Shown here piece after piece: positions 11,685 through 64,000 of a DNA stretch of 64,000 bases. Every line of letters starts with the position of its first letter. Position 1 is the stretch's first letter. The notes below the pieces were generated by a model. It saw nothing but the letters and a program-made list of their open reading frames with translations. It was not told where the DNA came from and searched no databases. The DNA lies in assembly GCA_964016885.1 (NCBI GenBank), contig OZ024745.1:61008001-61072000 (forward strand), written 5' to 3'. A program made the position numbers and the translations under genes. The DNA comes from Eledone cirrhosa (lineage: Eukaryota).

Positions 11685-12845
11685 ATATTGTTATACTTGG
11701 GGAGGGTCATATTTGTGTAATAATATTGCCAGAATTAATAACAGAACACACTCACTGTTTGGTTGGTTTTCGCTTCTGTGTCTTTTATATCGGTTAATTT
11801 AATTTATTCGGTCCTAAATGTTACCATTGACTGGCTAGCGGTCAAAAATACAGATACAATATAGACACAAACACATATATATAGTCTATCAAAGTTCTTT
11901 CGTTGCACATCTGCAACAGCGTCAGTGGTGCTATTATGTTTCCTCCCGTTGCATTGTATGCCTACGTAATCTTTATTTATTTATTGATTTGTTTATTTTT
12001 TTGTCTTCTCTGCGTTTGCATGTGTGTATAGTGTTTTGTTTGATGTGTGTTCTTGTTTGGGTGACTGTGTATTGGTTAATGTATTCTATCTTAGTTTACT
12101 CGTGTGTTTATATGTGTTTGTTGTTATTGTGCTTGTGTATGTATTTATTTATTTATTTATTTATTTATTTATACTTCTCTTAGGTCAGTGTTGTTTGTTT
12201 GGGTGTTGTTATTCCATTCATTTTTTCTGTTTAGCCTTGGTTTTCTAAGTTCTAAACAGAAAAAATGAATGGAATAACAACAACACCCAAACAAACAACA
12301 CTGACCTAAGGGAAGTATAAATAAATAAATACATACACAAGCACAATAACAACAAACACATATAAACACACTAGTAAACTAAGATAGAATACATTAACCA
12401 ATACACAGTCCCCCAAACAAGAACACACATCAAACAAAACACTATACACACACGCAAACGCATGCGCAGAGAAGAGAAAAAAACAAACAAATAAATAAAT
12501 AAATAAATAAACAGACTAAATAAAGATGGCGTAGGCATACAATGCAACGGGAGGAAACAATAGCACCACTGACGATGTTGCAGATGTGCAACGAAAGAAC
12601 TTTGATAGACTATATATATGTGTTTGTGTCTATATTGTATCTGTATTTTTGACCGCTGCCCAGTCAATGGTAACATTTAGGACAGAATAAATTAAATTAA
12701 CCGATATAAAAGACACAGAAGCGAAAACCAACCAAACAGTGAGTGTGTTCTGTTGTTAATTCTGGCAATATTATTACACAAATATGACCCTCCCCAAGTA
12801 TAACAATATTTGTTTCGACACACGATTTCATATAAAAAACCTTGC
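11685..12845. repeat. Fold-back (inverted-arm) repeat element, copy 1: ~550-bp arms, 17-bp spacer; possibly Penelope-like
   Basis: 11685-12234 is the reverse complement of 12252-12809, with scattered mismatches and microsatellite indels. The right arm extends with TTGTTTCGACACACGATTTCATATAAAAAACCT. Flanked by (TA)n. Confidence 0.9.
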
Positions 12846-16143: not shown

Positions 16144-17099
16144 CATCGTTTGTCAATTTTCCATGCTAGCATGGGTTAGACAGGTTGTCCCATTTGAGGC
16201 AGGTTGATTCAGGTGACCGTATCTTGCTCATATAGAACTGTTTCTGGCTAGGTTTCTACAGCTGGATACCCTTCCTAACGTTAACCACATTTACAGTGTG
16301 TGCTGGGTGCTTTTTGTTGTGACACCCACACAACCACTTTACAGTGTGGGCAGGATATATTTTGTTTACAGTAAGGGTGGTGTGAACAGAAGTGGGTGGG
16401 ATAATAATAATAGATATAAATAGAAGTTTAGCCGCAGTAGAGCAGATACCAATTGAATTGTTCAAGGCCATCACAAAGCACTCACTGGTGCGAAAAGTTA
16501 ATGCATTTTCATCCAGAGCAAACACAAAATTAAGAAAGTGTGACATCATGAATAAAACTTATGAGATATAGTGCTTGGATTAATCTATGAGGGATGAAAC
16601 TCTGAAAAAAAAACCTACTTGTATCATAACAACCCTTTTGACCTATACCAGCATGGAATGCGCATATAGAAGGATGATGTGCTTTGATAATGGGATGTAT
16701 GAACCACTAAAATAACGATCTATATTTTTTATACAAGTTTTATATTCTATTTGTCACACCATACATAGAAGGTGAATATACATTGCTTCTTTGCTACTAA
16801 AGAGTTTGAATATTTAGGGATATTTTGTTTGCATAGAGAGGTGGGGTATTAATGTAAGAAGATAATTCTTGTCTGCTGATAATGACAGTGATGGTGATGA
16901 TGATCTGTAACAGGGATAAAAAATTGCTTCAGATAATCATCTGTTAATTTTCATTTCATGTCTTTAATTAAGTTATCCTGGTCTAACTCTTTAGAGATCT
17001 GAACTTTCTGAATGTGTGTATGTATGTGTGTTTGCCTATATATATATATATCACCTTCGTTTAACGTCTATCTTCCACGCTAGCATGGGTTTAGATGTG

Positions 17100-17174
<75 letters not shown>

Positions 17175-17179
17175 AAACA

Positions 17180-17676
17180 AATTAGAATTTGAATTTTTGC
17201 TCTAGCATAGCAGATACATAAATGTAAATGCGGGTTATATCGAATAATAATATTCGATTCGTTTGCAAGCAAATGGCTTCACTTATGCTATGCTTTGTTT
17301 TTGATGACTACTGTCATCCGTTTGTTCAACAGTGGCATCGGCATCGAGGAACAATTAACACGTTTCTGGGTCATTTCCCTTCATCAGGACTGTAAACCTC
17401 TCTGCTACTCGATTGAACTGTTGAAAATATATAGTATTTTCTAATGTATACATCGGCTGATTAGCCACATTTGCATACCAAGCGATTTTACAGCTGGCCT
17501 TGCCGAAAGGTAAAAACAGAATCAGAATTTGATTTCTCACTCTAGCATAGCAGATTACATAAATGTAAATATGGGTTATATTGAATTATAATTATAATAT
17601 TTGATTTGTTTGCAAGCAAGCGACCTCACTTATGCTATGCTTTGTTTTTGATGACTATCGTCATGTGTTTGTTCAA
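17180..17676 (-). repeat. Terminally redundant ~340-bp unit (1.5-mer) containing a hammerhead-like motif
   Basis: ~155-bp direct repeats at ~17180-17330 and ~17520-17676 flank a segment that holds CTGATGA...GAAAC on the minus strand. Confidence 0.8.
17351..17393 (-). ncRNA. Putative minimal type I hammerhead ribozyme (degenerate)
   Basis: Minus strand reads ACAGTC-CTGATGA-A-GGG-AAATGA-CCC-A-GAAAC-GT-GTT-AATTGT. Both core boxes, stem II, a very short stem III and an imperfect stem I are present. Confidence 0.55.
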
Positions 17677-20600
17677 ATCACACTTGGGTCTAACTTTCTA
17701 CTTCCCATTGTGGATCAAATAAGTTCCAGTGCTAATGTTAGAAATCTTTTGAATTAAACTATGTACTACAAAACTGTTACATGGTATTTAGTTACATATA
17801 TTTATTCAATTCACCACACCCATTTTCTTCTACAAAAAAAGCCTTATTTCTAAGAAAGTTGTCTTCTTTATGAGAAGAAATCAAAAGACAACTATTTAGG
17901 AATGAAGCAGAGACTTTCATTTGAAGAATCCTTCGAGGATTATTGGTCTGAGCTGTTTGTGCTTGATAGAAGACAGTGCTGAACTTATTAAGAATATATG
18001 TGCTTTTCTTTGTCTATTAAGATTCAGAATTTTAAATAACAGCCTTTTTTTTATGTCATGGAAATAGTTCCATCATTTTTAATGTAGAATCATCAATGAA
18101 CTGTTCTCACATCAAATCTCATGGTTGTGCAAAAGAATTAATTTAAAAAAAGCTGTCCATTTATTTTTTTTTTAAATTTTGTAATGGAACATATCGAAAT
18201 AAATAGTGACCTTTCTTTTATTATAAATAGAGAATGAAAAATAAAGCTGTTAGCACAAGACAAATATTTCAATTCAATTTTATTCACTTTATTCTCATTA
18301 TGTAATAAATACAATGAAATGTTGAAGCGCCACTAACAATGAAAGCAGTGATAAAAATTCATATCAAATTGTTATTAAAAATTCATTTGAAATAATATTT
18401 ATATAATTTAATAAACTTCAAGTACTGTTCCATAACTCATTGAGGAATTATTTCGCTCTATACAGTGGTTTGAAAACGGACCCACAACAATATTGAGCTC
18501 TTAACCCTTTAGCATTTAAACCGGCCATATCCGGCCAGAATTCTCTCACCTTTTTCTGTTCAAACTGGCCAAAACCGGCTGCTCATACTGATGTTAAGGT
18601 ATTATTCTCAAAATTTCATAAATTGGATATTATGTGAGATAAAAGTGTGAAGTAAAGCCTTTTTCCATTAAAATATAATAGTGTATATGAGTAATGTAAA
18701 TGCTAAAGGGTTAAAATGTATATGGGTCCAGTGGACGTCATCACCATCATTGTTTTTACGTCTGCCTTTCCACACTTGCATGGGTTGGACGGGTCCTTTT
18801 CAGCACAGCATCTCTCCACTTGTCGCGTTTCTTTGTCATCTCCTCTGGGAGTCTAAGTGACTTGAGGTCAGCTCTCACCATCTCTGCCCAGGTCTTTTCC
18901 TGGTCTACCTCAGCTGCAGCTTCCATCCACTGGCATCTCTTGGCACTTCTTCACCCTTCAATCATCATTCATGCACGTCACATGTCCATACCAACACAGT
19001 CTTCTCTCCTGATCTGATTATATAAAATGACTGAGTGATAAATTTCTCCTCCCTCCCATGATTATATACTCCACATTCCTTGTAAAACATCTTTATAAAA
19101 ACATTATTCTATATTGCTTTTGTTCACAGAGATGTTAGCAGTATGTACTAGATCACATGAGAATGTTATTTATGATAAGAGAAGGATTTGTCTCATGAGC
19201 TTCACACTATAAAATTGGAACTTGGAACTTAACACAGGCTGTTAAAAGTTCTGCTGAGCCAAATCTAAGCAGGCCCAGTCACAGTGGTTGGTGATAGGCA
19301 TCCAGCCATAATAATGAGTAACTGAGAGGAAATGAAAAAAAAAAGAAAGAAAGAAAAGATAGGGTGTGCCAAAGAAATACATATTACACACCTTTAGAAT
19401 TGTGTCAGAGATGATGCAATCTAAGCTGCTTCTACAATGCTATATGATCTTATTAGAATGAAGTATTATTATGACTGTGTGTATATACGCATAATACACT
19501 ATATATCTTTGAAAAATATAAATAAACATGTAATTTCAGTTGAAAGTCCTGTTTTCTTTTCTTTTCATCTATATAAGATTTTTTCTTTGATCTCATTCAG
19601 TTACATTCACAGACATCTGACGACACAATTCACAATAATATTTTGATTATTAAAAATGGTCACTTCACTGAAGACTAGGTCTTTTGATTAATTTATGTCA
19701 CATCCCTAGCAATAAAATCAATGATCTCTCTACACCCATAACCCTTTCATGGCCACATTTTTAATGAAATACAGTCTATTTTAATTAATTAATGAAGAAT
19801 TTTAAGAGACTTACTAGCATTATTATTTATTTCATTACTTAATGTAAGGTTCTTATATAGAATTATGTTTGAAGATTTTAATTTAAATAGGAAATCTTGT
19901 ATTTAAATTAATTAATGAAGAATTTTGAGTGATTTACTAACATTATTAATTATTTCATTACTAAGATAGTAACTTAATGTGAAGTTCTTATATAATCTTA
20001 TGTTGGAAGACTTTGATTTAAATTGGATACCTTTAAAATGGGTGGCTTTATTTCATAGAACAAGAGATGGTTTTAGCCAGGTTGGTAACTAAAGGGTTAA
20101 ATACTCTCAGATTTAATATATTACCATCAATGTATACAAACATTTTTACTGTAGTTTCTTCTGATTTTCTCAAGTTTCTGAGTAGAGAACTTAGTATTCT
20201 GAGCTTTTAATTGAAAGCTCAGAACACTGATTTCTCTACTCAGAAACTGGCAGTTAATAAAAGAAAAGTAAAAAAAAAAACTTGATATTTTTCATATGAT
20301 TTCTTAGGGCATAGTTATAGGAAAAATGACAGTATCCATTACTTTTCTGCAGAGCTGTCAAGATTGGTGGATGGAAGGGAGGAAGTTCTTAATTTGGAGA
20401 TCTGGTCTGAATGCTAAAGACATCTACTGGCCATGTAGCTTCAGATTTAGTTTATATCAATCATGAACGGATACAGTCTACCCAATGAGTTTTTATACTG
20501 TTTTCATCTACCATATTTTCACTCCCAAGTCAACCTGAAGTTACGGTAGAAGACCCATGTACGAAGTACTGTACAGTGTGATTTAGCTGGAAACTACATG

Positions 20601-24560: not shown

Positions 24561-25315
24561 TCATCATCATCTCATCGTTTATCATCTATCTTCTATGCTA
24601 GCATGGGTTTAGACAGGAATTGTCCCACTTGAGGCAAGATTGGTCGTTTTGCTCGTATAGGACTGTCTGGCTGGATGCCCTTCCTAACACCAACCACGTT
24701 TACAGTGTGAACTGGGAGGTTTTACCATGTTACCTACATGGCCACATTACAGCGTGGACTGTGTGTTTTTTTTTTTTTCGTTGTGACACCTACACAACCT
24801 CATTTATTTAGGACTGGATGTTGTGGTACCAACAAAACTTTACAGAGAAAGGGGTGGTGTTGATGGGGGTGGAGGTGGGGGAGTTAGGATAGTGTGATGG
24901 GGGTGTATATTTGATTAAGAGGTGCCTACTTTGTACTTAGGCAAGGCGGGTTTTCTGTATTACTGCGTAGCGCCAAAGATCTCGGTCCAGTGACAATGTC
25001 TTAGAGAGGTGTAAGTGTGTAAGGTCGGAATTTATCAAATCATCCCAGGTTTTTCTGGGTCTGCCTACTCTATAATTTCCGTCAATTTTGATCGCCCTGC
25101 ACTTTTTTATACAGCTGTCGTCTTTCATGTGCATCACGTGACCATACCAACGTAGTCTTCTCTCGAGTAAACAGCATCTGATCCCTCTTATACCTAATTT
25201 CTCACTTAGTTCATTTATGCTTTGCTGTTCACGTATATTACTATTACACATCCAGCGGAGCATACATGCTTCGTTCCTCTCCAGTCTGCGCAGATCCTCT
25301 GCACACAATGCCCAT
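24561..25315 (-). mobile_element. RTE-clade LINE, 5'-truncated 3' end
   Basis: ORF C-terminus WALCAEDLRRLERNEACMLRWMC...RRLRWYGHVMHM...GRPRKTW...DRDLWR, followed by the 3' UTR and a (GAT)n tail. Confidence 0.9.
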
Positions 25316-25324
25316 GACATACTC

Positions 25325-26997
25325 TTTTCCTTGTTCGACAACTACAGGAGAAGTACTTAGCTAAAAGTAAATCCCTCTACTTAGTTTTTGTAGACCTGGA
25401 GAAAGCCTTTGACAGAGTCCCCCGCTCCATTATCTTAGCAAACTAGGTGTAGATGAATGGCTTGTGAGAGCTATACAAGCTATGTATAAAGAAACAGTCA
25501 GTATGGTTAGAATTAACAATGAATATTGTGAAGAATTTAGTGTAAAAGTTGGTGTTCATCAAGGCTCTGTCCTTAGCCCCCTCCTATTTATTATTGCCCT
25601 TCAGGCTATAACAGAGGAGTTTAAGACCGGCTGCTCATAGGAACTCCTATACGCAGATGATCTAACTCTCATAGCTGAATCTATGGCTGAACTAGAGAAG
25701 AAATTCCAAACATGGAAGAATGGCCTAGAATCAAAAGGCCTTAAAGTTAACTTGTCTAAGACTACAGTTCTAGTTTGTAGAAAGGAAAATAGGGCACAAG
25801 TGCCCTCAGGGAAATGGCCATGCTCAGTGTGTAAAAGGAGTAGGCAGAAATTCCATTTTATGTCCCAAATGCAGACTATGGGTACATAAAAGATATAGTG
25901 GGATCATAGGTAAACTATCTAAGAACGTAGATTTTATATGTGGCTGATGCTCAGGTGCAATAAGTAGCAAATGCCCACAGGATACTAGCTCCTTCTATTG
26001 CCCAGGTGGTTCTATAGAAATAGTGGACACTTTCCATTACCTGGGTGACAAAATCAGCAGTGGTGGAGGGTGCTCTGAAAGTACAGTAGCCAGAGTCAGA
26101 ACGGGATGGAAAAAGTTCAGAGAGCTTATACCGCTGTTGGCCACAAAAGGGTTCTCTCTAAAAATAAAAGGCAGATTGTATGATGCCTGTATACGAACAA
26201 CAATGCTACATGGCAGTGAGACATGGGCATTGCATGCAGAGGACCTGCGCAGACTGGAAAGGAAGGAAGCATTCATGCCCCGTTGGATGTGTAATAGTAA
26301 TATAGGTGAACGGCAAAGCATAAATGAACTAAGTGAGAAATTAGGAATAAGAGGGATCAGATGCTGTTTACTTGAGAGAAGACTACGTTGGTATGGTCAC
26401 GTGATGCACATGAAAGACGACAGCTGTATAAAAAAGTGCAGGGCAATCAAAATTGATGGTATTTACAGAGTAGGTAGACCCAGAAAAACTTGGGACAATT
26501 TGATAAATTCCGACCTTACACACTGGACTGAGATCTTTGGCGCTATGCAGTAATACAGAAGACCCGCCTCGCCTATGTACAAAGTGAAACCTACAGTCAG
26601 TAGGCACCTCTTAACCAAATATACACCCCAATCCACTACTCCTACCCTATCCTCCCACTCCCACCAACACCACCCTCTCTCTGTAAACTTAGTACCACAA
26701 CATCCAGTCCAAATAAATGAGATAATGAGATCAAGATCGTGTAAGTGTCACGACAAAAAAAACCACACAGTCCACGCTGTAATGTGGCCATGTAGGTAAC
26801 ACGGTAAAAAGTTACCAGTTCCACACTGTAAATGTGGTTGGTGTTAGGAAGGGCATCCAGCCGTAGAAAACCTGCCAGATAGTCCTGTATGAGCGAGACA
26901 CGGTCACACGACCAAGCTTGCCTCAAGTGGGACAACTCCCGTCTAACCCATGCTAGCATGGAAGATGGACGTTAAACGAAGATGATGATGATGATGT
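25325..26997 (+). mobile_element. RTE-clade LINE, 5'-truncated and disrupted (RT pseudogene through 3' tail)
   Basis: RT motifs FVDLEKAFDRVP, GVHQGSVLSPLLF and LLYADDL, with stops and frameshifts. C-terminal FHYLGD...LRWYGHV...GRPRKTW, 3' UTR ending GGACGTTAAACGAA(GAT)n. Confidence 0.93.
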
Positions 26998-27010
26998 ATA
27001 TATATATATG

Positions 27011-27067
<57 letters not shown>

Positions 27068-27295
27068 ATATATATAGATGATGATGATATCTATGTATAT
27101 ATATATATGTATGTATGTATATATATATAGATGATGATGATATCTATGTATATATATATATATGTATGTATGTATATATATATAGATGATGATGATATCT
27201 ATGTATATATATATATGTATTTATGTATATATATATATGTATGTACATATATATGTATGTATATATATATATGTATGTGTATATATATGTATGTA
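26998..27295. repeat. Compound (TA)n/(TATG)n/(GAT)n microsatellite with ~60-bp secondary periodicity
   Basis: TATAGATGATGATGATATCTATGTATATA is repeated three times. Confidence 0.85.
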
Positions 27296-28350
27296 TCATC
27301 ATCATCATCATCATCATCAACGTTTAACGTCCGTGTTCCACGCTTGCATGGGTTTGGACGGGGGTAGTCCCACTTGAGGCAAGAGTGATTGTCTTGCTCG
27401 CATAGGACTGTCTGGCAGGTTTTCTACAGTTGGATGCCCTTCCTAACACCAACCACATTTACAGTGTGGGTCTGGGAGGTTTTTACCGTGTTGCCTACAC
27501 GGCCACATTACAGCGTGGACTGTGTGTTTTTTGTCGTGACACCTACACGATCTCATTTGTTTCGGCCTGGATGGCGCGGCACCAACATAACTTTACATAG
27601 AACGGGGTGGTGTGGATGGGGTGTGGGTGGTGGCGGGACGGGGTGTATTTTGTTAGAGATGCCTACTGGCAAGGCGGGTCTTCTCTGTTACTGAGTACCG
27701 CCAAAGGTCTCGGTCCAGTGACATTGTCTTGGAGAGGTGTAAGTGTGTGAGGTCGGAGTTTATCAGCTCATCCCATGTTTTTCTACCTATTCCGTGGCTA
27801 CCGTCTATCTTTATTGCCCTGCACTTTGTAATACAGCTATCGACTTTCATGCGCATCACGTGTCCATACCAACGCAGCCTTCTCTCGAGTAAACAACATC
27901 TGATCCCTCTTATCTCTAATTTTTTCCTTAGTTCGTTTATGCTTTGCCATTCACGTATATTACTGTTACACATCCAGCGGAGCATGCAAGCTTCGTTCCT
28001 CTCTAGTCTGCGTATATCCTCTGCACACAATGCCCAGGTCTCACTACCATGCAACATTGCTGTTCGTATGCAGGCATTGTACAACCTGCCTTTCATTTTT
28101 AGGGAGAACCCTTTAGCAGCTAATAGTGGTATAAGCACTCTGAACTTTTTCCAACCAGTTCTGACTCTAGCTACAGTACTTTCAGAGCACCCTCCCCCAC
28201 TGCTGATTTTATCGCCCAGGTAACGGAAGCTGTCCACTATTTCTATAGAACCCTCTGCGCAATTGAAAGAGCTAGTATTTTAGTGGGCACTTGCTGCTAC
28301 TTATTGCACCAGAACACCGGCCACATGTAAAGTCTATGTTCTTAGTTAGA
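27296..28350 (-). mobile_element. RTE-clade LINE, 5'-truncated, third copy
   Basis: ORF 27653-28237 (FRYLGD...LHGSETW...LRWYGHV), 3' UTR and (GAT)n tail at 27296. Confidence 0.92.
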
Positions 28351-29831: not shown

Positions 29832-30402
29832 TGTTATACTTGGGGAGGGTCATATTTGTGTAATATTGCCAGAATTAATAACAGAACACACTCACTGTTT
29901 GGTTGGTTTTCGCTTCTCGCTGTCTTTTATATCTGTAATCTAACTTACTCGGTCCTCAATGTTGCCATTGACTGACCGACGGTCAAAAATAATACAGATA
30001 CAATATAGACACAAACACATATATATATAGTTTACATAATTTACATAAATCTTTCGTTGCACATCTGCAAAAATGGCGTAGACATACAACACAACAGGAG
30101 GAAAATATAACACCACTGACGATGTTGCAGATGTGCAACGAAAGATTTATGTAAATTATGTAAACTATATATATATGTGTTTGTGTCTATATTGTATTTG
30201 TATTATTTTTGACCGTCGGTCAGTCAATGGCAACATTGAGGACCGAGTAAGTTAGATTACAGATATAAAAGACAGCGAGAAGCGAAAACCAACCAAACAG
30301 TGAGTGTGTTCTGTTATTAATTCTGGCAATATTACACAAATATGACCCTCCCCAAGTATAACAATATTTGTTTCGACACACGATTTCATATAAAAAACCT
30401 CG
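29832..30402. repeat. Fold-back repeat element, copy 2: ~240-bp almost identical arms, 54-bp spacer
   Basis: 29832-30070 is the reverse complement of 30125-30363 (one mismatch seen). Same family and same right-hand extension as 11685-12845. Confidence 0.92.
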
Positions 30403-52169: not shown

Positions 52170-53148
52170 GGCTGAATTTTCGTAAGATGTAGCTAGCGAT
52201 CTCCACGAGTAATTACATTGTAGCAGTTGCACCAAACCTCCTCTCGACTAAGTATGAACTTGGAAAAGGCAGAGCAAATCTCTTAGCCTCTGCATGTAGG
52301 AGTGGAAATCGACGCTGAATTTCCTCTTGCATCCAAAAAAGGGGTTCACCTATTTTGGGAAATCTAATTTTGATCATGTTATCTGCTTGAAGTTCAATGA
52401 ATTCTTCCTGAAATTTAACGTTCAAATCGTCGACGGTAGCTATGAAGGGATCTGCTATCCACATTGGGATATCCATCGGCAAAAGGTCGACAAACTGTTC
52501 TCTCATGTTGTCTTGTAGTGCATGGAAGTGAGCGGTATAAATTTGGAGTTGGTCATCGCTTACAATGTTTTGAACATTGGCGACACTAGGAAAATTATAG
52601 AATTCCCGTCAACAAAGATTCCTTTCGATGACATTCAATTTGGCCAGGAATGTTTTCACAGCATTCCTTTCTTTAAGCAAGGTGATCTTCTTCCCCTGCA
52701 AAGCCATAATGACGCTATTGCATTTGTCAAAGGTGTTAGCGAGGTAGGCGCAGTCTTGCCTCACATCGAGGGTTTTCTTGTACAGTTCTGTGTTGCGTCC
52801 TCGAAGAAACTCAATGATAGAGTCGAACAGTTCAAAGAAGTGAGTAAGGCACTTGCCCTTTGAAAGCCACCTCACTTCAGTATGAAGGAGCAACTTGACG
52901 AATTCTTCGTCATTATCTTGGTACAGTTGCCGAAAATTTTCTTCATTGAGGGAATGGTGTTTGATAAAATTGATGACATCAATGGCCACCTGCAAGGACT
53001 TGCTCAGTGGCTCACTGAGTTTCTTCACAGCCAAGTGTTGTTGATGAATGACACAATGAACAGCAAATACAGATAGATTTTCTCTCTTCAGAAGAGTGAA
53101 GAAACCCTTATGTTGGCCGACCATTGCTCTTGCGTCATCCGTAGCACA
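52170..53148 (-). pseudogene. Buster/Charlie (ZBED8/SCAND3-like) hAT transposase pseudogene, C-terminal part
   Basis: ATDDARAMVG, HCVIHQQHL, LLLHTEVRWLSKG, WIADPF and LPFPSSYLVERRF motifs; frameshifted, with the N-terminus missing. Confidence 0.9.
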
Positions 53149-53149
53149 T

Positions 53150-53470
53150 GATACAATGTGTATTGTATGTGGTCCTAGATGTATGTATTACCTCCCTGTG
53201 TGTTGTATGCAGTCCTAGATGTATGTATTACCTGCTTATGTATTGCATGTGGTCCCAGCTGTATGTATTACCTGCTTGTGTGTTGTATGTGGTCCTAGAT
53301 GTGTGTATTACCTGCTTATGTGTTGCATGTGGTCCTAGATGTGTGTATTACCTGCTTATGTGTTGTATGTGGTCCTAGATGTGTGTATTACCTGATTATG
53401 AGTTGTATGTGGTCCTAGATGTGTGTATTACCTGCTTATGTGTTGTATGTGGTCCTAGATGTGTGTGCTA
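53150..53470. repeat. 40-bp minisatellite, about 8 copies
   Basis: Unit ATGTGGTCCTAGATGTGTGTATTACCTGCTTATGTGTTGT. Confidence 0.95.
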
Positions 53471-58332: not shown

Positions 58333-61300
58333 CTGTGGTTGTATGGCTAGGACAGTTCTCCTCAGATCACCTAGGTAACTGTGGTTGTATGGCTAGGACA
58401 GTTCTCCTCTGATCACCTAGGTAACTGTGGTTGTATGACTAGGACAGTTCTCCCCAGATCACCTAGGTAACGGTGGTTGTATTGCTAGGACAGTTCTCCT
58501 CAGATCACCTAGGTAACGGTGGTTGTATGGCTAGGACAGTTCTCCTCAGATCACCTAGGTAAATGTGGTGGTATGGCTAGGACAGTTCTCCTCTGATCAC
58601 CTAGTTACCTGTGGTTGTATGACTAGGACAGTTCTCCTCAGATCACCTAGGTAACTGTGGTCGTATGGCTAGGACAGTTCTCCTCAGATCACCTAGGTAA
58701 CTGTGGTTGTATGGCTAGGACAGTTCTCCTCTGATCACCTAGGTAACTGTGGTTGTATGGCTAGGACAGTTCTCCTCAGATCACCTAGGTAACTGTGGTT
58801 GTATGGCTAGGACAGTTCTCCTCAGATCACCTAGGTAACTGTGGTTGTATGGCTAGGACAGTTCTCCCCAGATCACCTAGGTAACTGTGGTTGTATGGCT
58901 AGGATAGTTCTCCTCTGATCACCTAGGTAACTGTGGTGGTATGGCTAGGACAGTTCTCCTCTGATCACCTAGGTAACTGTGGTTGTATGGCTAGGACAGT
59001 TCTCCTCAGATCACCTAGGTAACTGTGGTTGTATGGCTAGGATAGTTCTCCTCTGATCACCTAGGTAACTGTGGTGGTATGGCTATGACAGTTCTCCTCA
59101 GATCACCTAGGTAACTGTGGTTGTATGGCTAGGATAGTTCTCCTCTGATCACCTAGGTAACTGTGGTTGTATTGCTAGGACAGTTCTCAGATCACCTAGG
59201 TAACTGATTGTATAGCTAGGACAGTTCTCAGATCACCTAGGTAACTGATTGTATGGCTAGGACAGTTCTCCTCAGAGCACCTAGGTAACTGTGGTTGTAT
59301 TGCTAGGACAGTTCTCCCCAGATCACCTAGGTAACTGATTGTATGGCTAGGACAGTTCTCCCCTGATCACCTAGGTAACTGTGGTGGTATGGCTAGGACA
59401 GTTCTCCTCAGATCACCTAGGTAACTGTGGTTGTATGGCTAGGACAGTTCTCCTCTGATCAACTAGGTAACTGTGGTTGTATGACGAGGACAGTTCTCCC
59501 CAGATCACTTATGTAACGGTGGTGGTATGGCTAGGACAGTTCTCCTCTGATCACCTAGGTAACTGTGGTGGTATGGCTAGGACAGTTCTCCTCTGATCAC
59601 CTAGGTAACGGTGGTTGTATGGCTAGGACAGTTCTCCTCTGCTCACCTGTGTAACTGTGGTTGTATGACTAGGACAGTTCTCCTCTGATCACCTAGGTAA
59701 CTGTGGTTGTATGGCTAGGACAGTTCTCCTCAGATCACCTAGGTAACTGTGGTGGTATGGCTAGGACAGTTCTCCTCAGATCACCTAGGTAACTGTGGTT
59801 GTATGACTAGGACAGTTCTCCTCTGATCACCTAGGTAACTGTGGTTGTATGGCTAGGACAGTTCTCCTCTGATCACCTAGGTAACTGTGGTTGTATGGCT
59901 AGGACAGTTCTCCTCAGATCACCTAGGTAACTGTGGTTGTATGGCTAGGACAGTTCTCCTCAGATCACCTAGGTAACTGTGGTTGTATTGCTAGGACAGT
60001 TCTCCTCTGATCACCTAGGTAACTGTGGTTGTATGGCTAGGACAGTTCTCCTCAGATCACCTAGGTAACTGTGGTTGTATTGCTAGGACAGTTCTCCCCA
60101 GATCACCTAGGTAACTGATTGTATGGCTAGGACAGTTCTCCCCTGATCACCTAGGTAACTGTGGTTGTATGGCTAGGACAGTTCTCCTCTGATCACCTCG
60201 GTAACTGTGGTTGTATGACGAGGACAGTTCTCCTTGAGATCACTTATGTAACGGTGATCGTATGGCTAGGACAGTTCTCCTCTGATCACCTAGGTAACTG
60301 TGGTGGTATAGCTAGGACAGTTCTCCTCTGATCACCTAGGTAACGGTGGTTGTATGGCTAGGACAGTTCTCCTCTGATCACCTGTGTAACTGTGGTTGTA
60401 TGACTAGGACAGTTCTCCTCTGATCACCTAGGTAACTGTGGTTGTATGGCTAGGACAGTTCTCCTCAGATCACCTTGGTAACTGTGGTTGTATGAATAGG
60501 ACAGTTCACCTCTGATCACCTAGGTAACTGTGGTTGTATGGCTAGGACAGTTCTCCTCAGATCACCTAGGTAACTGGTGGTATGGCTAGGACAGTTCTCC
60601 TCAGATCACCTAGGTAACTGTGGTTGTATGACTAGGACAGTTCTCCTCTGATCACCTAGGTAACTGTGGTTGTATGGCTAGGACAGTTCTCGTCAGATCA
60701 CCTAGGTAACTGTGGTTGTATGACTAGGACAGTTCTCCTCTGATCACCTAGGTAACTGTGGTTGTATGGCTAGGACAGTTCTCCTCAGATCACCTAGGTA
60801 ACTGTGGTGGTATGGCTAGGACAGTTCTCCTCAGATCACCTAGGTAACTGTGGTTGTATGGCTAGGACAGTTCTCCTCAGATCACCTAGGTAACTGTGGT
60901 TGTATTGCTATGACAGTTCTCCTCTGATCACCTAGGTAACTGTGGTTGTATGGCTAGGACAGTTCTCCTCTGATCACCTAGGTAACTGTGGTTGTATGGC
61001 TAGGACAGTTCTCCTCAGATCACCTAGGTAACTGTGGTGGTATGGTTAGGACAGTTCTCCTCAGATCACCTAGGTAACTGTGGTGGTATGGCTAGGACAG
61101 TTCTCCTCAGATCACCTAGGTAACTGTGGTTGTATGGCTAGGACAGTACTCCTCAGATCACCTAGGTAACTGTGGTGGTATGGCTAGGACAGTTCTCCTC
61201 AGATCACCTAGGTAACTGTGGTTGTATGGCTAGGACAGTTCTCCTCAGATTATCTAGGTAACTGTGGTTGTATGGCTAGGACAGTTCTCCTCAGATCACC

Positions 61301-64000
61301 TAGGTAACTGTGGTTGTATGGCTAGGACAGTTCTCCTCAGATCACCTAGGTAACTGTGGTTGTATGGCTAGGACAGTTCTCCTCAGATCACCTAGGTAAC
61401 TGTGGTTGTATGACTAGGACAGTTCTCCTCAGATCACCTAGGTAACTGTGGTTGTATGGCTAGGACAGTTCTCCTCAGATCACCGAGGTAACTGTGGTTG
61501 TATGGCTAGGACAGTTCTCCTCTGACCACCTTGGTAACTGTGGTTGTATGGCTAGGACAGTTCTCCTCTGATCACCTAGGTAACTGTGGTTGTATGGCTA
61601 GGACAGTTCTCCTCAGATCACCTAGGTAACTGTGGTTGTATGGCTAGGACAGTCCTCCTCAGATCACCTAGGTAACTGTGGTTGTATGGCTAGGACAGTT
61701 CTCCTGTGATCACCTAGGTAACTGTGGTTGTATGGCTAGGACAGTTCTCCTCTGATCACCTAGGTAACTGTGGTTGTATGGCTAGGACAGTACTCCTCAG
61801 ATCACCTAGGTAACTGTGGTTGTATGGCTAGGACAGTTCTCCTCAGATCACCTAGGTAACTGTGGTTGCATTGCTAGGACAGTTCTCCTCTGATCACCTA
61901 GGTAACTGTGGTTGTATGGCTAGGACAGTTCTCCTCAGATCACCTAGGTAAATGTGGTGGTATGGCTAGGACAGTTCTCCTCAGATCACCTAGGTAACTG
62001 TGGTGGTATGGCTAGGACAGTTCTCCTCAGATCACCTAGGTAACTGTGATGGTATGGCTAGGACAGTTCTCCTCAGATCACCTAGGTAACTGTGGTTGTA
62101 TGGCTAGGACAGTTCTCCTCTGATCACCTAGGTAACTGTGGTTGTATGGCTAGGACAGTTCTTTTCAGATCATCTAGGTAACTGTGGTTGTATGGCTAGG
62201 ACAGTTCTCCTCAGATCATCTAGGTAACTGTGGTTGTATGGCTAGGACAGTTCTCCTCTGATCACCTAGGTAACTGTAGTTGTACTGCTAGGACAGTTCT
62301 CCTCAGATCACCTAGGTAACTGTGGTGGTATGGCGAGGACAGTTCTCCTCAGATCACCTAGGTAACTGTGGTGGTATGGCTAGGACAGTTCTCCTCAGAT
62401 CACCTAGGTAACTGTGGTTGTATTGCTAGGACAGTTCTCCCCAGATCACCTAGGTAACTGATTGTATGGCTAGGACAGTTCTCCCCTGATCACCTAGGTA
62501 ACTGTGGTTGTATGGCTAGGACAGTTCTCCTCAGATCACCTAGGTAACTGTGGTTGTATGGCTAGGACAGTTCTCCTCAGATCACCTAGGTAACTGTGGT
62601 TGTAATGCTAGGACAGTTCTCCTCTGATCACCTAGGTAACTGTCGTTGTATGACGAGGACAGTTATCCCCAGATCACTTATGTAACGGTGGTCGTATGGC
62701 TAGGACAGTTCTCCTCTGATCACCTAGGTAACTGTGGTGGTATGGCTAGGACAGTTCTCCTCTGATCACCTAGGTAACGGTGGTTGTATGGCTAGGACAG
62801 TTCTCCTCTGCTCACCTGTGTAACTGTGGTTGTATGACTAGGACAGTTCTCCTCTGATCACCTAGGTAACTGTGGTTGTATGGCTAGGACAGTTCTCCTC
62901 AGATCACCTTGGTAACTGTGGTTGTATTAATAGGACAGTTCACCTCTGATCACCTAGGTAACTGTGGTTGTATGGCTAGGACAGTTCTCCTCAGATCACC
63001 TAGGTAACTGTGGTGGTATGGCTAGGACAGTTCTCCTCAGATCACCTAGGTAACTGTGGTTGTATGACTAGGACAGTTCTCCTCTGATCACCTAGGTAAC
63101 TGTGGTTGTATGGCTAGGACAGTTCTCCTCAGATCACCTAGGTAACTGTGGTTGTATTGCTAGGACAGTTCTCCTCTGATCACCTAGGTAACTGTGGTTG
63201 TATGGCTAGGACAGTTCTCCCCAGATCACCTAGGTAACTGATTGTATGGCTAGGACAGTTCTCCCCTGATCACCTAGGTAACTGTGGTTGTATGGCTAGG
63301 ACAGTTCTCCTCAGATCACCTAGGTAACTGTGGTTGTATGGCTAGGACAGTTCTCCTCAGATCACCTAGGTAACTGTGGTTGTATGGCTAGGACAGTTCT
63401 CCTCTGATCACCTAGGTAACTGTGGTTGTATGATGAGGACAGTTCTCCCCAGATCACTTATGTAATGGTGGTCGTATGGCTAGGACAGTTCTCCTCTGAT
63501 CACCTAGGTAACTGTGGTGGTATGGCTAGGACAGTTCTCCTCTGATCACCTAGGTAACGGTGGTTGTATGGCTAGAACAGTTCTCCTCTGCTCACCTGTG
63601 TAACTGTGGTTGTATGACTAGGACAGTTCTCCTCTGATCACCTAGGTAACTGTGGTTGTATGGCTAGGACAGTTCTCCTCAGATCACCTTGGTAACTGTG
63701 GTTGTATGAATAGGACAGTTCACCTCTGATCACCTAGGTAACTGTGGTTGTATGGCTAGGACAGTTCTCCTCAGATCACCTAGGTAACTGGTTGTATGGC
63801 TAGGACAGTTCTCCTCAGATCACCTAGGTAACTGTGGTTGTATGACTAGGACAGTTCTCCTCTGATCACCTAGGTAACTGTGGTTGTATGGCTAGGACAG
63901 TTCTCCTCTGATCACCTAGGTAACTGTGGTTGTATGGCTAGGACAGTACTCCTCAGATCACCTGGGTAACTGTGGTTGTATGGCTAGGACAGTTCTCCTC
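58333..64000. repeat. 46-bp tandem satellite, about 123 copies in the window, running past the window end
   Basis: Unit CTGTGGTTGTATGGCTAGGACAGTTCTCCTC(A/T)GATCACCTAGGTAA. Highly homogeneous, with no unique spacers and variant patterns recurring at 780 bp. Confidence 0.98.

What the first reader, a model, noticed from the sequence alone, without database searches (positions are those of the whole stretch)
17180..17676. Hammerhead-like ribozyme inside a terminally redundant ~340-bp unit (candidate retrozyme or mini Penelope-like element)
Seen: ~155-bp direct repeats 340 bp apart, next to a long (TA)n. Between them the minus strand reads ACAGTC CTGATGA A GGG AAATGA CCC A GAAAC GT GTT AATTGT. 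Known: minimal type I hammerheads with very short stem III occur in Penelope-like element pLTRs and in short tandem metazoan retrozymes that yield circular RNAs. Inference: this 1.5-mer is a reverse-transcribed copy of such an RNA. This copy is decayed (A-A at the base of stem II, mismatch in stem I, GUU triplet), so activity is doubtful, but the family consensus may be active.
Basis: partly seen in the sequence, partly recalled or inferred. Interest (0 to 1): 0.72.

Follow-up and report, generated by a model that had tools for sequence, protein, structure and literature searches.

The report
Decayed copy of Penelope-pasted hammerhead retrozyme
This is an old, mutated copy of a 340-base non-coding repeat, present at hundreds of places in this animal genome, that carries a hammerhead (predicted self-cutting RNA) motif and was likely pasted in by Penelope-type jumping-gene enzymes; the kind of element is known, but the ends of its copies make its proposed copying route testable.

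Summary
Confirmed. 17175-17676 (minus) is 1.48 turns of a 340-nt non-coding unit with one type I hammerhead. At least 597 relatives keep its core exactly. The A.A pair and GUU triplet are family traits, not decay; only a few changes are private to this copy (about 7% from consensus, likely dead). The fold is canonical, with a long, covarying stem I, rather than minimal. Homologous sister families (3,423 core matches, mostly C; 25,012, D) swap stems I-III while keeping pairing and the stem III palindrome. Copies end at two fixed sites about 35-45 nt apart, mostly abutting (TA)n; head-to-head insertions pair one of each (17 of 17 scorable, family D). This is the Penelope tail signature, and an autonomous Penelope-like element here shows it too. 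An octamer-TATA block resembling some host U6 promoters precedes the ribozyme. Not shown: cleavage, transcription, circles, the partner element. [quoted passage not shown] The scan noted sister families, the two-arm footprint and the promoter before, on other DNA of this genome.

The parts
17175..17676 (-). Whole insertion: 1.48 turns of the 340-nt unit (unit position +22 to +340, then +1 to +183, counted from the predicted cut site)
   Evidence: 36 substitutions against the family consensus
17514..17676 (-). First copy of the redundant segment; 5' truncation point at 17676, unique flank, no inverted arm seen
17175..17329 (-). Second copy of the redundant segment (the tail after the ribozyme)
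   Evidence: 83% identical to the first; both share small departures from consensus
17351..17393 (-). Type I hammerhead: stem I 5' arm 17393-17388, CUGAUGA 17387-17381, A.A pair 17380/17367, stem II 17379-17368, GAAA 17366-17363, palindromic stem III 17363-17358, predicted cut between 17357 and 17356
   Evidence: Sequence; pairs counted; cross-family swaps; cleavage untested
17397..17418 (-). 5' arm of the extended stem I (three further helices)
17324..17349 (-). 3' arm of the extended stem I, with a private 6-nt duplication
17465..17477 (-). Octamer block (ATGCAAAT at 17476-17469), candidate snRNA-type promoter element; one change from the family word here
   Evidence: Kept in families A-D; 13-nt exact match of the family word to the upstream region of U6 locus L325; function untested
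17424..17433 (-). TATA-like box, 43 nt after the octamer and 77 nt before the cut site; predicts a start near 17403
   Evidence: inference from U6 spacing
17218..17228 (-). End site 1 of the family (+133 to +141), passed over by this copy; a second copy lies at about 17559-17569
17175..17190 (-). End site 2 (+177 to +186), where this copy's 3' end lies, at the T-rich tract
17106..17171 (.). (TA)33 microsatellite abutting the 3' end; likely the insertion target
   Evidence: microsatellite follows 54 of 58 site-1/site-2 ends in family C

Best explanation
This is a 5'-truncated, likely inactive copy of a 340-nt non-coding tandem unit with a conserved type I hammerhead fold (a non-LTR retrozyme), likely inserted by the reverse transcriptase and GIY-YIG endonuclease of a Penelope-like element acting in trans. 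Steps: (1) inferred: a multi-unit locus is transcribed from an internal octamer-TATA promoter; (2) predicted: the ribozyme cuts weakly, best as a dimer through its palindromic stem III, and some monomers are ligated into circles; (3) inferred from copy ends: the Penelope protein cuts AT-rich or (TA)n DNA and starts reverse transcription inside the RNA at one of two sites 135 or 180 nt past the cut site, often from both sides of the break; (4) shown: this copy begins at site 2, runs back through the ribozyme's cut site and stops after 1.48 units, so its template was a circle or an uncut multimer, not a cut linear monomer; (5) shown: it has since drifted about 7%, including a mismatch next to the cut site.
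For: Dispersed family. Unit closes on itself and has no ORF over 44 aa. Pairing kept in 92% of cells, 41 double changes against 19 in shuffles, and stems swapped between families A/B, C and D. Consensus circle folds at z = -8.3. Fixed 3' ends: family A 11 of 20, with 7 of the other 9 cut by a later insert; family C 58 of 80. Head-to-head arms pair site 1 with site 2 in 17 of 17 scorable family D loci of 26 and 5 of 7 family C loci. Two internal start sites and a 30-40 nt tail are Penelope traits (PMC11167929, PMC8557442). RT plus GIY-YIG elements are abundant, one with a 905-codon open frame and the same two-end pattern.
Against: No partner identified: no ORF-linked terminal repeat homologous to the unit in 80 Penelope-type loci. 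Cleavage, transcription and circles untested. In family A/B true dimers are rare (L033 seen; one search gave no real one among 2 hits), and many copies have broken cores. 23 of the 40 rows were picked by an exact core pattern and the double changes come mostly from one subfamily split. End-site windows were drawn after seeing the data. Site pairing was scored in sister families, not in A/B. Octamer-TATA spacing is 42-44 nt against 46-47 in U6. No RNA-editing scar was found.
Confidence: 0.8

Rival explanations
1. The unit is the terminal repeat (pLTR) plus tail of an autonomous Penelope-like element not sampled here, and the copies are its truncated 3' stubs.
For: Same ends, inversions and target as Penelope elements; only 150 of more than 10,000 GIY-YIG candidates were scored; Xenopus retrozymes match pLTRs (10.64898/2026.07.22.740005).
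Against: Sequence after the ribozyme equals sequence before it, so the unit is closed; 5' flanks are unique or inverted arms in the copies inspected; sister families form pure dimers and arrays of up to 7.
Confidence: 0.1
2. Same element and enzyme, but the template is an uncut linear multimer; the ribozyme rarely cuts and circles play no part in copying.
For: In vitro, unprocessed RNA is the main substrate of an anole Penelope protein (PMC11167929). 17 of 28 family C dimers stop within 70 nt before the first cut site, 26% expected, as if limited by a transcript start. A.A and GUU likely slow the ribozyme (recalled, untested).
Against: 10 of those 28 run 95-215 nt upstream, past the predicted start (2 may be alignment run-ins to an inverted arm). 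Linear copying loses a promoter-bearing unit each round, yet family D holds arrays of up to 7 with 0-4 differences within 7 of 8 arrays. The ribozyme fold is kept across families only about 66% alike.
Confidence: 0.35
3. A satellite or SINE spread by DNA-level events or by a LINE, with an incidental hammerhead-like motif.
For: Core motif is within chance in the window; no Rfam match; RT fragments of another retroelement type lie in the window.
Against: Compensatory stem swaps, fixed paired ends, inverted arms and variable 5' truncation are not expected from this; no poly(A) tail at the window's 3' end.
Confidence: 0.04

Closest known systems
Metazoan non-LTR retrozymes (Cervera and de la Pena 2020, PMC7229834: passages, section 14 and Discussion read, supplement unreadable; Li, Clavereau and Pollet 2026, 10.64898/2026.07.22.740005: parts 1-3 of 5 read)
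   Same: 150-450 bp non-coding units, GC under 45% (36% here), type I hammerhead, highly self-paired predicted circle, monomers to multimers, co-occurrence with Penelope-like elements. The axolotl Amex2 motif also has a mismatch (U.U) at the base of stem II.
   Different: A.A mismatch and GUU triplet; family A/B is nearly all sub-dimeric and old, so this copy fails the preprint's 'active' definition (two complete ribozymes); RNA and circles not shown here; the parts read report no two-site or two-arm footprint.
Endonuclease-bearing Penelope-like elements (PMC8557442 passages; PMC11167929 parts 1-2 of 4; PMC4209133 parts 1-2 of 4)
   Same: Partial tandems, inverted 5' arms, (TA)n targets, two internal start sites giving a 30-40 nt tail, hammerhead upstream of the start sites.
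   Different: No ORF; canonical rather than minimal ribozyme (no G10.1-C11.1 pair with bulged base); no sequence match to the terminal repeats sampled.
Newt satellite 2 (Coats, Zhang and Epstein 1994: not held, seen only as cited in PMC2220036; ribozyme passages in PMC6155905)
   Same: Hammerhead repeat with an internal snRNA-type promoter, dimer cleavage and an extended stem I.
   Different: Cited as RNA polymerase II; the block here has a TATA box and a downstream T-run like U6 (polymerase III), untested; family A is dispersed, not a satellite.

Membership tests
Metazoan non-LTR retrozyme | Short non-coding unit (150-450 bp), low GC | tested here: met
   340 nt, GC 36%, longest ATG ORF 44 aa
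Metazoan non-LTR retrozyme | Type I hammerhead fold conserved in the unit | tested here: met
   no Rfam model match
Metazoan non-LTR retrozyme | Head-to-tail repeats with two or more ribozymes | tested here: inconclusive
   Window copy has one; L033 is a dimer in A/B; met in sister families C (68 matches) and D
Metazoan non-LTR retrozyme | Dispersed multi-copy | tested here: met
Metazoan non-LTR retrozyme | Self-cleavage | not testable with these tools
   Needs in vitro transcription
Metazoan non-LTR retrozyme | Expressed as linear and circular RNA | not testable with these tools
Autonomous Penelope-like element | RT plus GIY-YIG ORF between terminal repeats | tested here: not met
   No such ORF in or beside the unit
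Penelope-mobilised element | Two fixed 3' ends about 30-40 nt apart | tested here: met
   A: 130-142 and 175-187; C: 135-150 and 165-185
Penelope-mobilised element | Inverted 5' arms and AT-rich or microsatellite targets | tested here: met
   Opposite-strand pieces in 23 of 72 A/B loci. The window copy itself is single-armed
Penelope-mobilised element | Sequence link to a partner's terminal repeat | tested here: inconclusive
   None in 80 loci, a small sample of the candidates
Minimal Penelope hammerhead (PMC4209133) | Bulged base after position 9, G10.1-C11.1 pair, short stem I | tested here: not met
   A.A opposition and a long stem I
U6-type (type 3) promoter | Host upstream word and TATA at U6 spacing | tested here: inconclusive
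   Exact octamer at -76/-77 in 2 of 12 distinct U6 upstream regions, a one-letter variant in 7, none in 3; spacing 3-4 nt shorter in the repeat
Plant LTR retrozyme | Type III hammerhead in LTRs, 4-bp target duplication | tested here: not met
   Type I fold; no duplication seen at the window's junctions (by eye)

The most novel reading that the evidence does not exclude
This copy is a fossil of a self-promoting retrozyme superfamily (over 29,000 intact ribozyme cores) that carries a captured host U6-type promoter, uses deliberately weak mismatch-closed hammerheads, and is copied round an RNA circle by a dimeric Penelope protein that starts at two sites from both ends of a break in (TA)n; some branches captured the target microsatellite into the unit and now seed microsatellites.
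Probability: 0.3. Interest if true: 0.72.

Novelty: new member of a known kind. Interest (0 to 1): 0.46.

Why it matters
The papers read propose, from co-occurrence and terminal-repeat similarity, that Penelope-like elements mobilise animal retrozymes through circles, but do not show the insertion step. Here the copy ends carry the two-site signature measured in vitro for a Penelope protein, and they name the RNA start sites and DNA target for a direct assay. The four related ribozymes are a natural series (A.A or U.U closure; GUU, GUC, GUA) for hammerhead chemistry. The window copy itself is an ordinary dead member; the young sister family D is the better test object.

Tried and rejected
Rfam: no hammerhead match. 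Hard 5' boundary at a transcript start: suggested by 5 dimers, rejected on 28 (an excess near the ribozyme, spread over 26-71 nt, with 10 copies going far beyond; stalling in the long stem explains it equally well; single copies showed no significant excess, 6 of 53, p = 0.29). Pile-up of 5' ends at the cut site: 2 of 81 arms in C and 1 of 20 in A within 10 nt, no support for cut linear templates. A-to-I editing scars: none (A 34 A>G against 36 T>C; B 21/9, p = 0.15; C 56/45). Within-array identity as proof of rolling-circle copying: not decisive, the nearest other array can differ by only 1-4 changes. A/B dimer pattern: 2 hits, neither a true dimer. Partner search: negative. RNA search with a family C dimer: no RNA holder listed. 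First pair count used a mis-registered structure and was redone. Target duplication: none seen; a 14-nt repeat 707 nt apart was taken as chance. Literature: 10 searches listed no paper describing this family by title or abstract start; the unread supplements of PMC7229834 and of the 2026 preprint could list it.

Full report
Observation. On the minus strand the element runs 17676 to 17175 and abuts (TA)33. Alone the hammerhead core is within chance (21 of 100 shuffles) and Rfam finds nothing relevant. The case rests on the family.

Family. The window lies on contig C5 of a 3.0-Gb genome. A DNA search gave 2,762 candidates, 40 scored, 53 matches on many contigs. Exact patterns over the ribozyme gave 154 and 597 matches, controls 0; these are lower bounds. 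From 21 loci (30 fetched, 9 dropped as segmental duplicates) the consensus closes on itself as a 340-nt unit (family A). Subfamily B carries a microsatellite inside the unit. Eighteen A copies average 9.7% from consensus, the window 6-7%: an old family. The consensus circle folds at -96.6 kcal/mol against -63.9 +/- 3.9 for 60 shuffles, and -84.3 for the opposite strand; this is a consensus, not a natural copy.

Ribozyme. Family traits are a 6-bp stem I, an A.A opposition closing a 3-4 bp stem II, a palindromic 6-nt stem III and GUU. Stem I continues across an internal loop into three more helices. On 40 of 51 anchored copies (11 truncated or gapped ones left out; 23 of the 40 chosen by an exact core pattern) 92% of cells pair, with 41 double changes against 19.3 in shuffles and 22-43% pairing when slid; most double changes reflect the A/B split. 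Stronger evidence comes from homologous sister families found beside other loci. Family C (437 nt; most of 3,423 core matches) keeps A.A, has GUC and a longer stem III. Family D (420-510 nt, about 66% alike to A; 25,012 matches) has U.U, GUA, a different stem I and II that still pair, and a different stem III that is still a palindrome. By PMC4209133 this is the canonical layout expected to work as a dimer, not the minimal Penelope form. That GUU and A.A slow cleavage is recalled, not tested; the passages of PMC1636495 name GUC as the usual natural triplet and do not contain GUU. The window copy adds a mismatch beside the cut site and a 6-nt duplication, so it is likely dead.

Ends. In family A, 11 of 20 copies end at +130-142 or +175-187 from the cut site; 7 of the other 9 are interrupted by a SINE-like insert. 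The window copy ends at +183. In family C, 58 of 80 arms end at the matching two sites and 54 of these are followed by a simple repeat under a loose test. The site windows were set after looking. In head-to-head insertions one arm ends at each site: 17 of 17 scorable family D loci out of 26 (one probable duplicate dropped; site 1 there cannot be told from the internal microsatellite) and 5 of 7 in family C (one has two site-2 ends, one is cut). Opposite-strand pieces occur in 23 of 72 A/B loci. PMC11167929 reports two internal start sites, giving the 30-40 bp tail, AT-rich cutting of both strands and a predicted dimer for an anole Penelope protein; PMC8557442 describes inverted arms and (TA)n targets.

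Partner. GIY-YIG candidates exceed 10,000; 3 of 4 long frames carry both RVT_1 and GIY-YIG matches. One young family (18,080 candidates) has its own minimal hammerhead in its terminal repeat, a 905-codon open frame at L287, and two 3' ends about 45 nt apart before simple repeats (10 and 12 of 30, 8 other). None of 80 such loci has a terminal repeat homologous to the unit; the matches were free-standing retrozyme inserts. Mobilisation in trans is therefore inferred from the footprint, and the partner is unnamed.

Template. The window copy crosses the cut site and covers 1.48 units, which a cut linear monomer cannot template. Circle or uncut multimer remain. For circles: arrays of up to 7 near-identical units in family D and dimers that run past the predicted start. 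For uncut RNA: the in vitro result of PMC11167929 and the excess of dimer ends near the first ribozyme (17 of 28). I put circles at about 55:45 within the main explanation.

Promoter. ATGCAAAT lies 87-89 nt before the core in 27 of 51 A/B loci (the 13-nt word within two mismatches in 40 of 51) and at the same place in C (three copies) and D, followed by a TATA-like box. Among 12 distinct upstream regions of 30 U6 loci, 2 have the exact octamer at -76/-77, 7 a one-letter variant, 3 none. One shares 13 nt exactly with the family word (0 of 200 shuffles; the other 4 regions tested were not above chance). T-runs follow site 2. This suggests a U6-like promoter, with precedent in newt satellite 2 (second-hand). 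The U6 comparison was prompted by earlier scan notes; transcription is untested.

Verdict. [quoted passage not shown] Nearly every feature has a precedent in the papers read; the added value is genomic evidence for the Penelope insertion step, most of it from sister families that the scan had already noted elsewhere in this genome. That the host is a cephalopod is a guess shared with those notes and was not tested.

Noticed in passing
window 12569-12596 and 30116-30143 (+): Two copies of a different, minimal-type hammerhead (bulged U, 5-bp stem II) in short elements that end before (TA)n at two points about 20 nt apart; the second has an inverted copy of the ribozyme region upstream. Likely Penelope terminal-repeat stubs.
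   Followed up: partly
L007, L014, L016, L113, L114, L129 and others, unit position about +105 to +125: A SINE-like element of about 200 nt repeatedly interrupts the retrozyme unit at its ATT-repeat hairpin (7 of 20 family A copies); the SINE label is my reading, not a database match.
   Followed up: partly
Families B and D (L031-L060, L103, L217): A (TA/TG)n run sits inside the unit, in a hairpin just before end site 1, and varies in length between units of one array; the element carries microsatellites with it.
   Followed up: partly
L103 8568-9562; L217; L232: Family D is young and abundant: 25,012 exact cores, arrays of up to 7, two-armed insertions.
   Followed up: yes
L093, L098, L102, L111, L131: A further hammerhead family with a U.U closure, GUC and a long palindromic stem III, often as inverted pairs; not linked to the neighbouring ORFs.
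   Followed up: partly
L327-L354 (G000:C19, about 31.78-31.84 Mb): A tandem array of about 30 U6-like genes at about 1.8-kb spacing with a variant upstream word; L331 has the SINE-like element inserted in its upstream region.
   Followed up: no
window 58333-64000: 46-bp satellite, about 124 copies, 92% matches.
   Followed up: no
window 24937-28279: Three fragments of one reverse-transcriptase-like C-terminal coding region, not Penelope-type by appearance; 52213-53187 looks like a DNA-transposase remnant. Labels are recalled, not searched.
   Followed up: no
window 16150-16370, 17054-17095, 18767-18794: Pieces of another abundant repeat, also seen beside many fetched loci; one sits in the same TA-rich tract as the retrozyme.
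   Followed up: no
L016-L024 (G000:C1, 143.3-143.8 Mb): One family A copy is repeated nine times at about 60-kb spacing as part of a segmental array.
   Followed up: no
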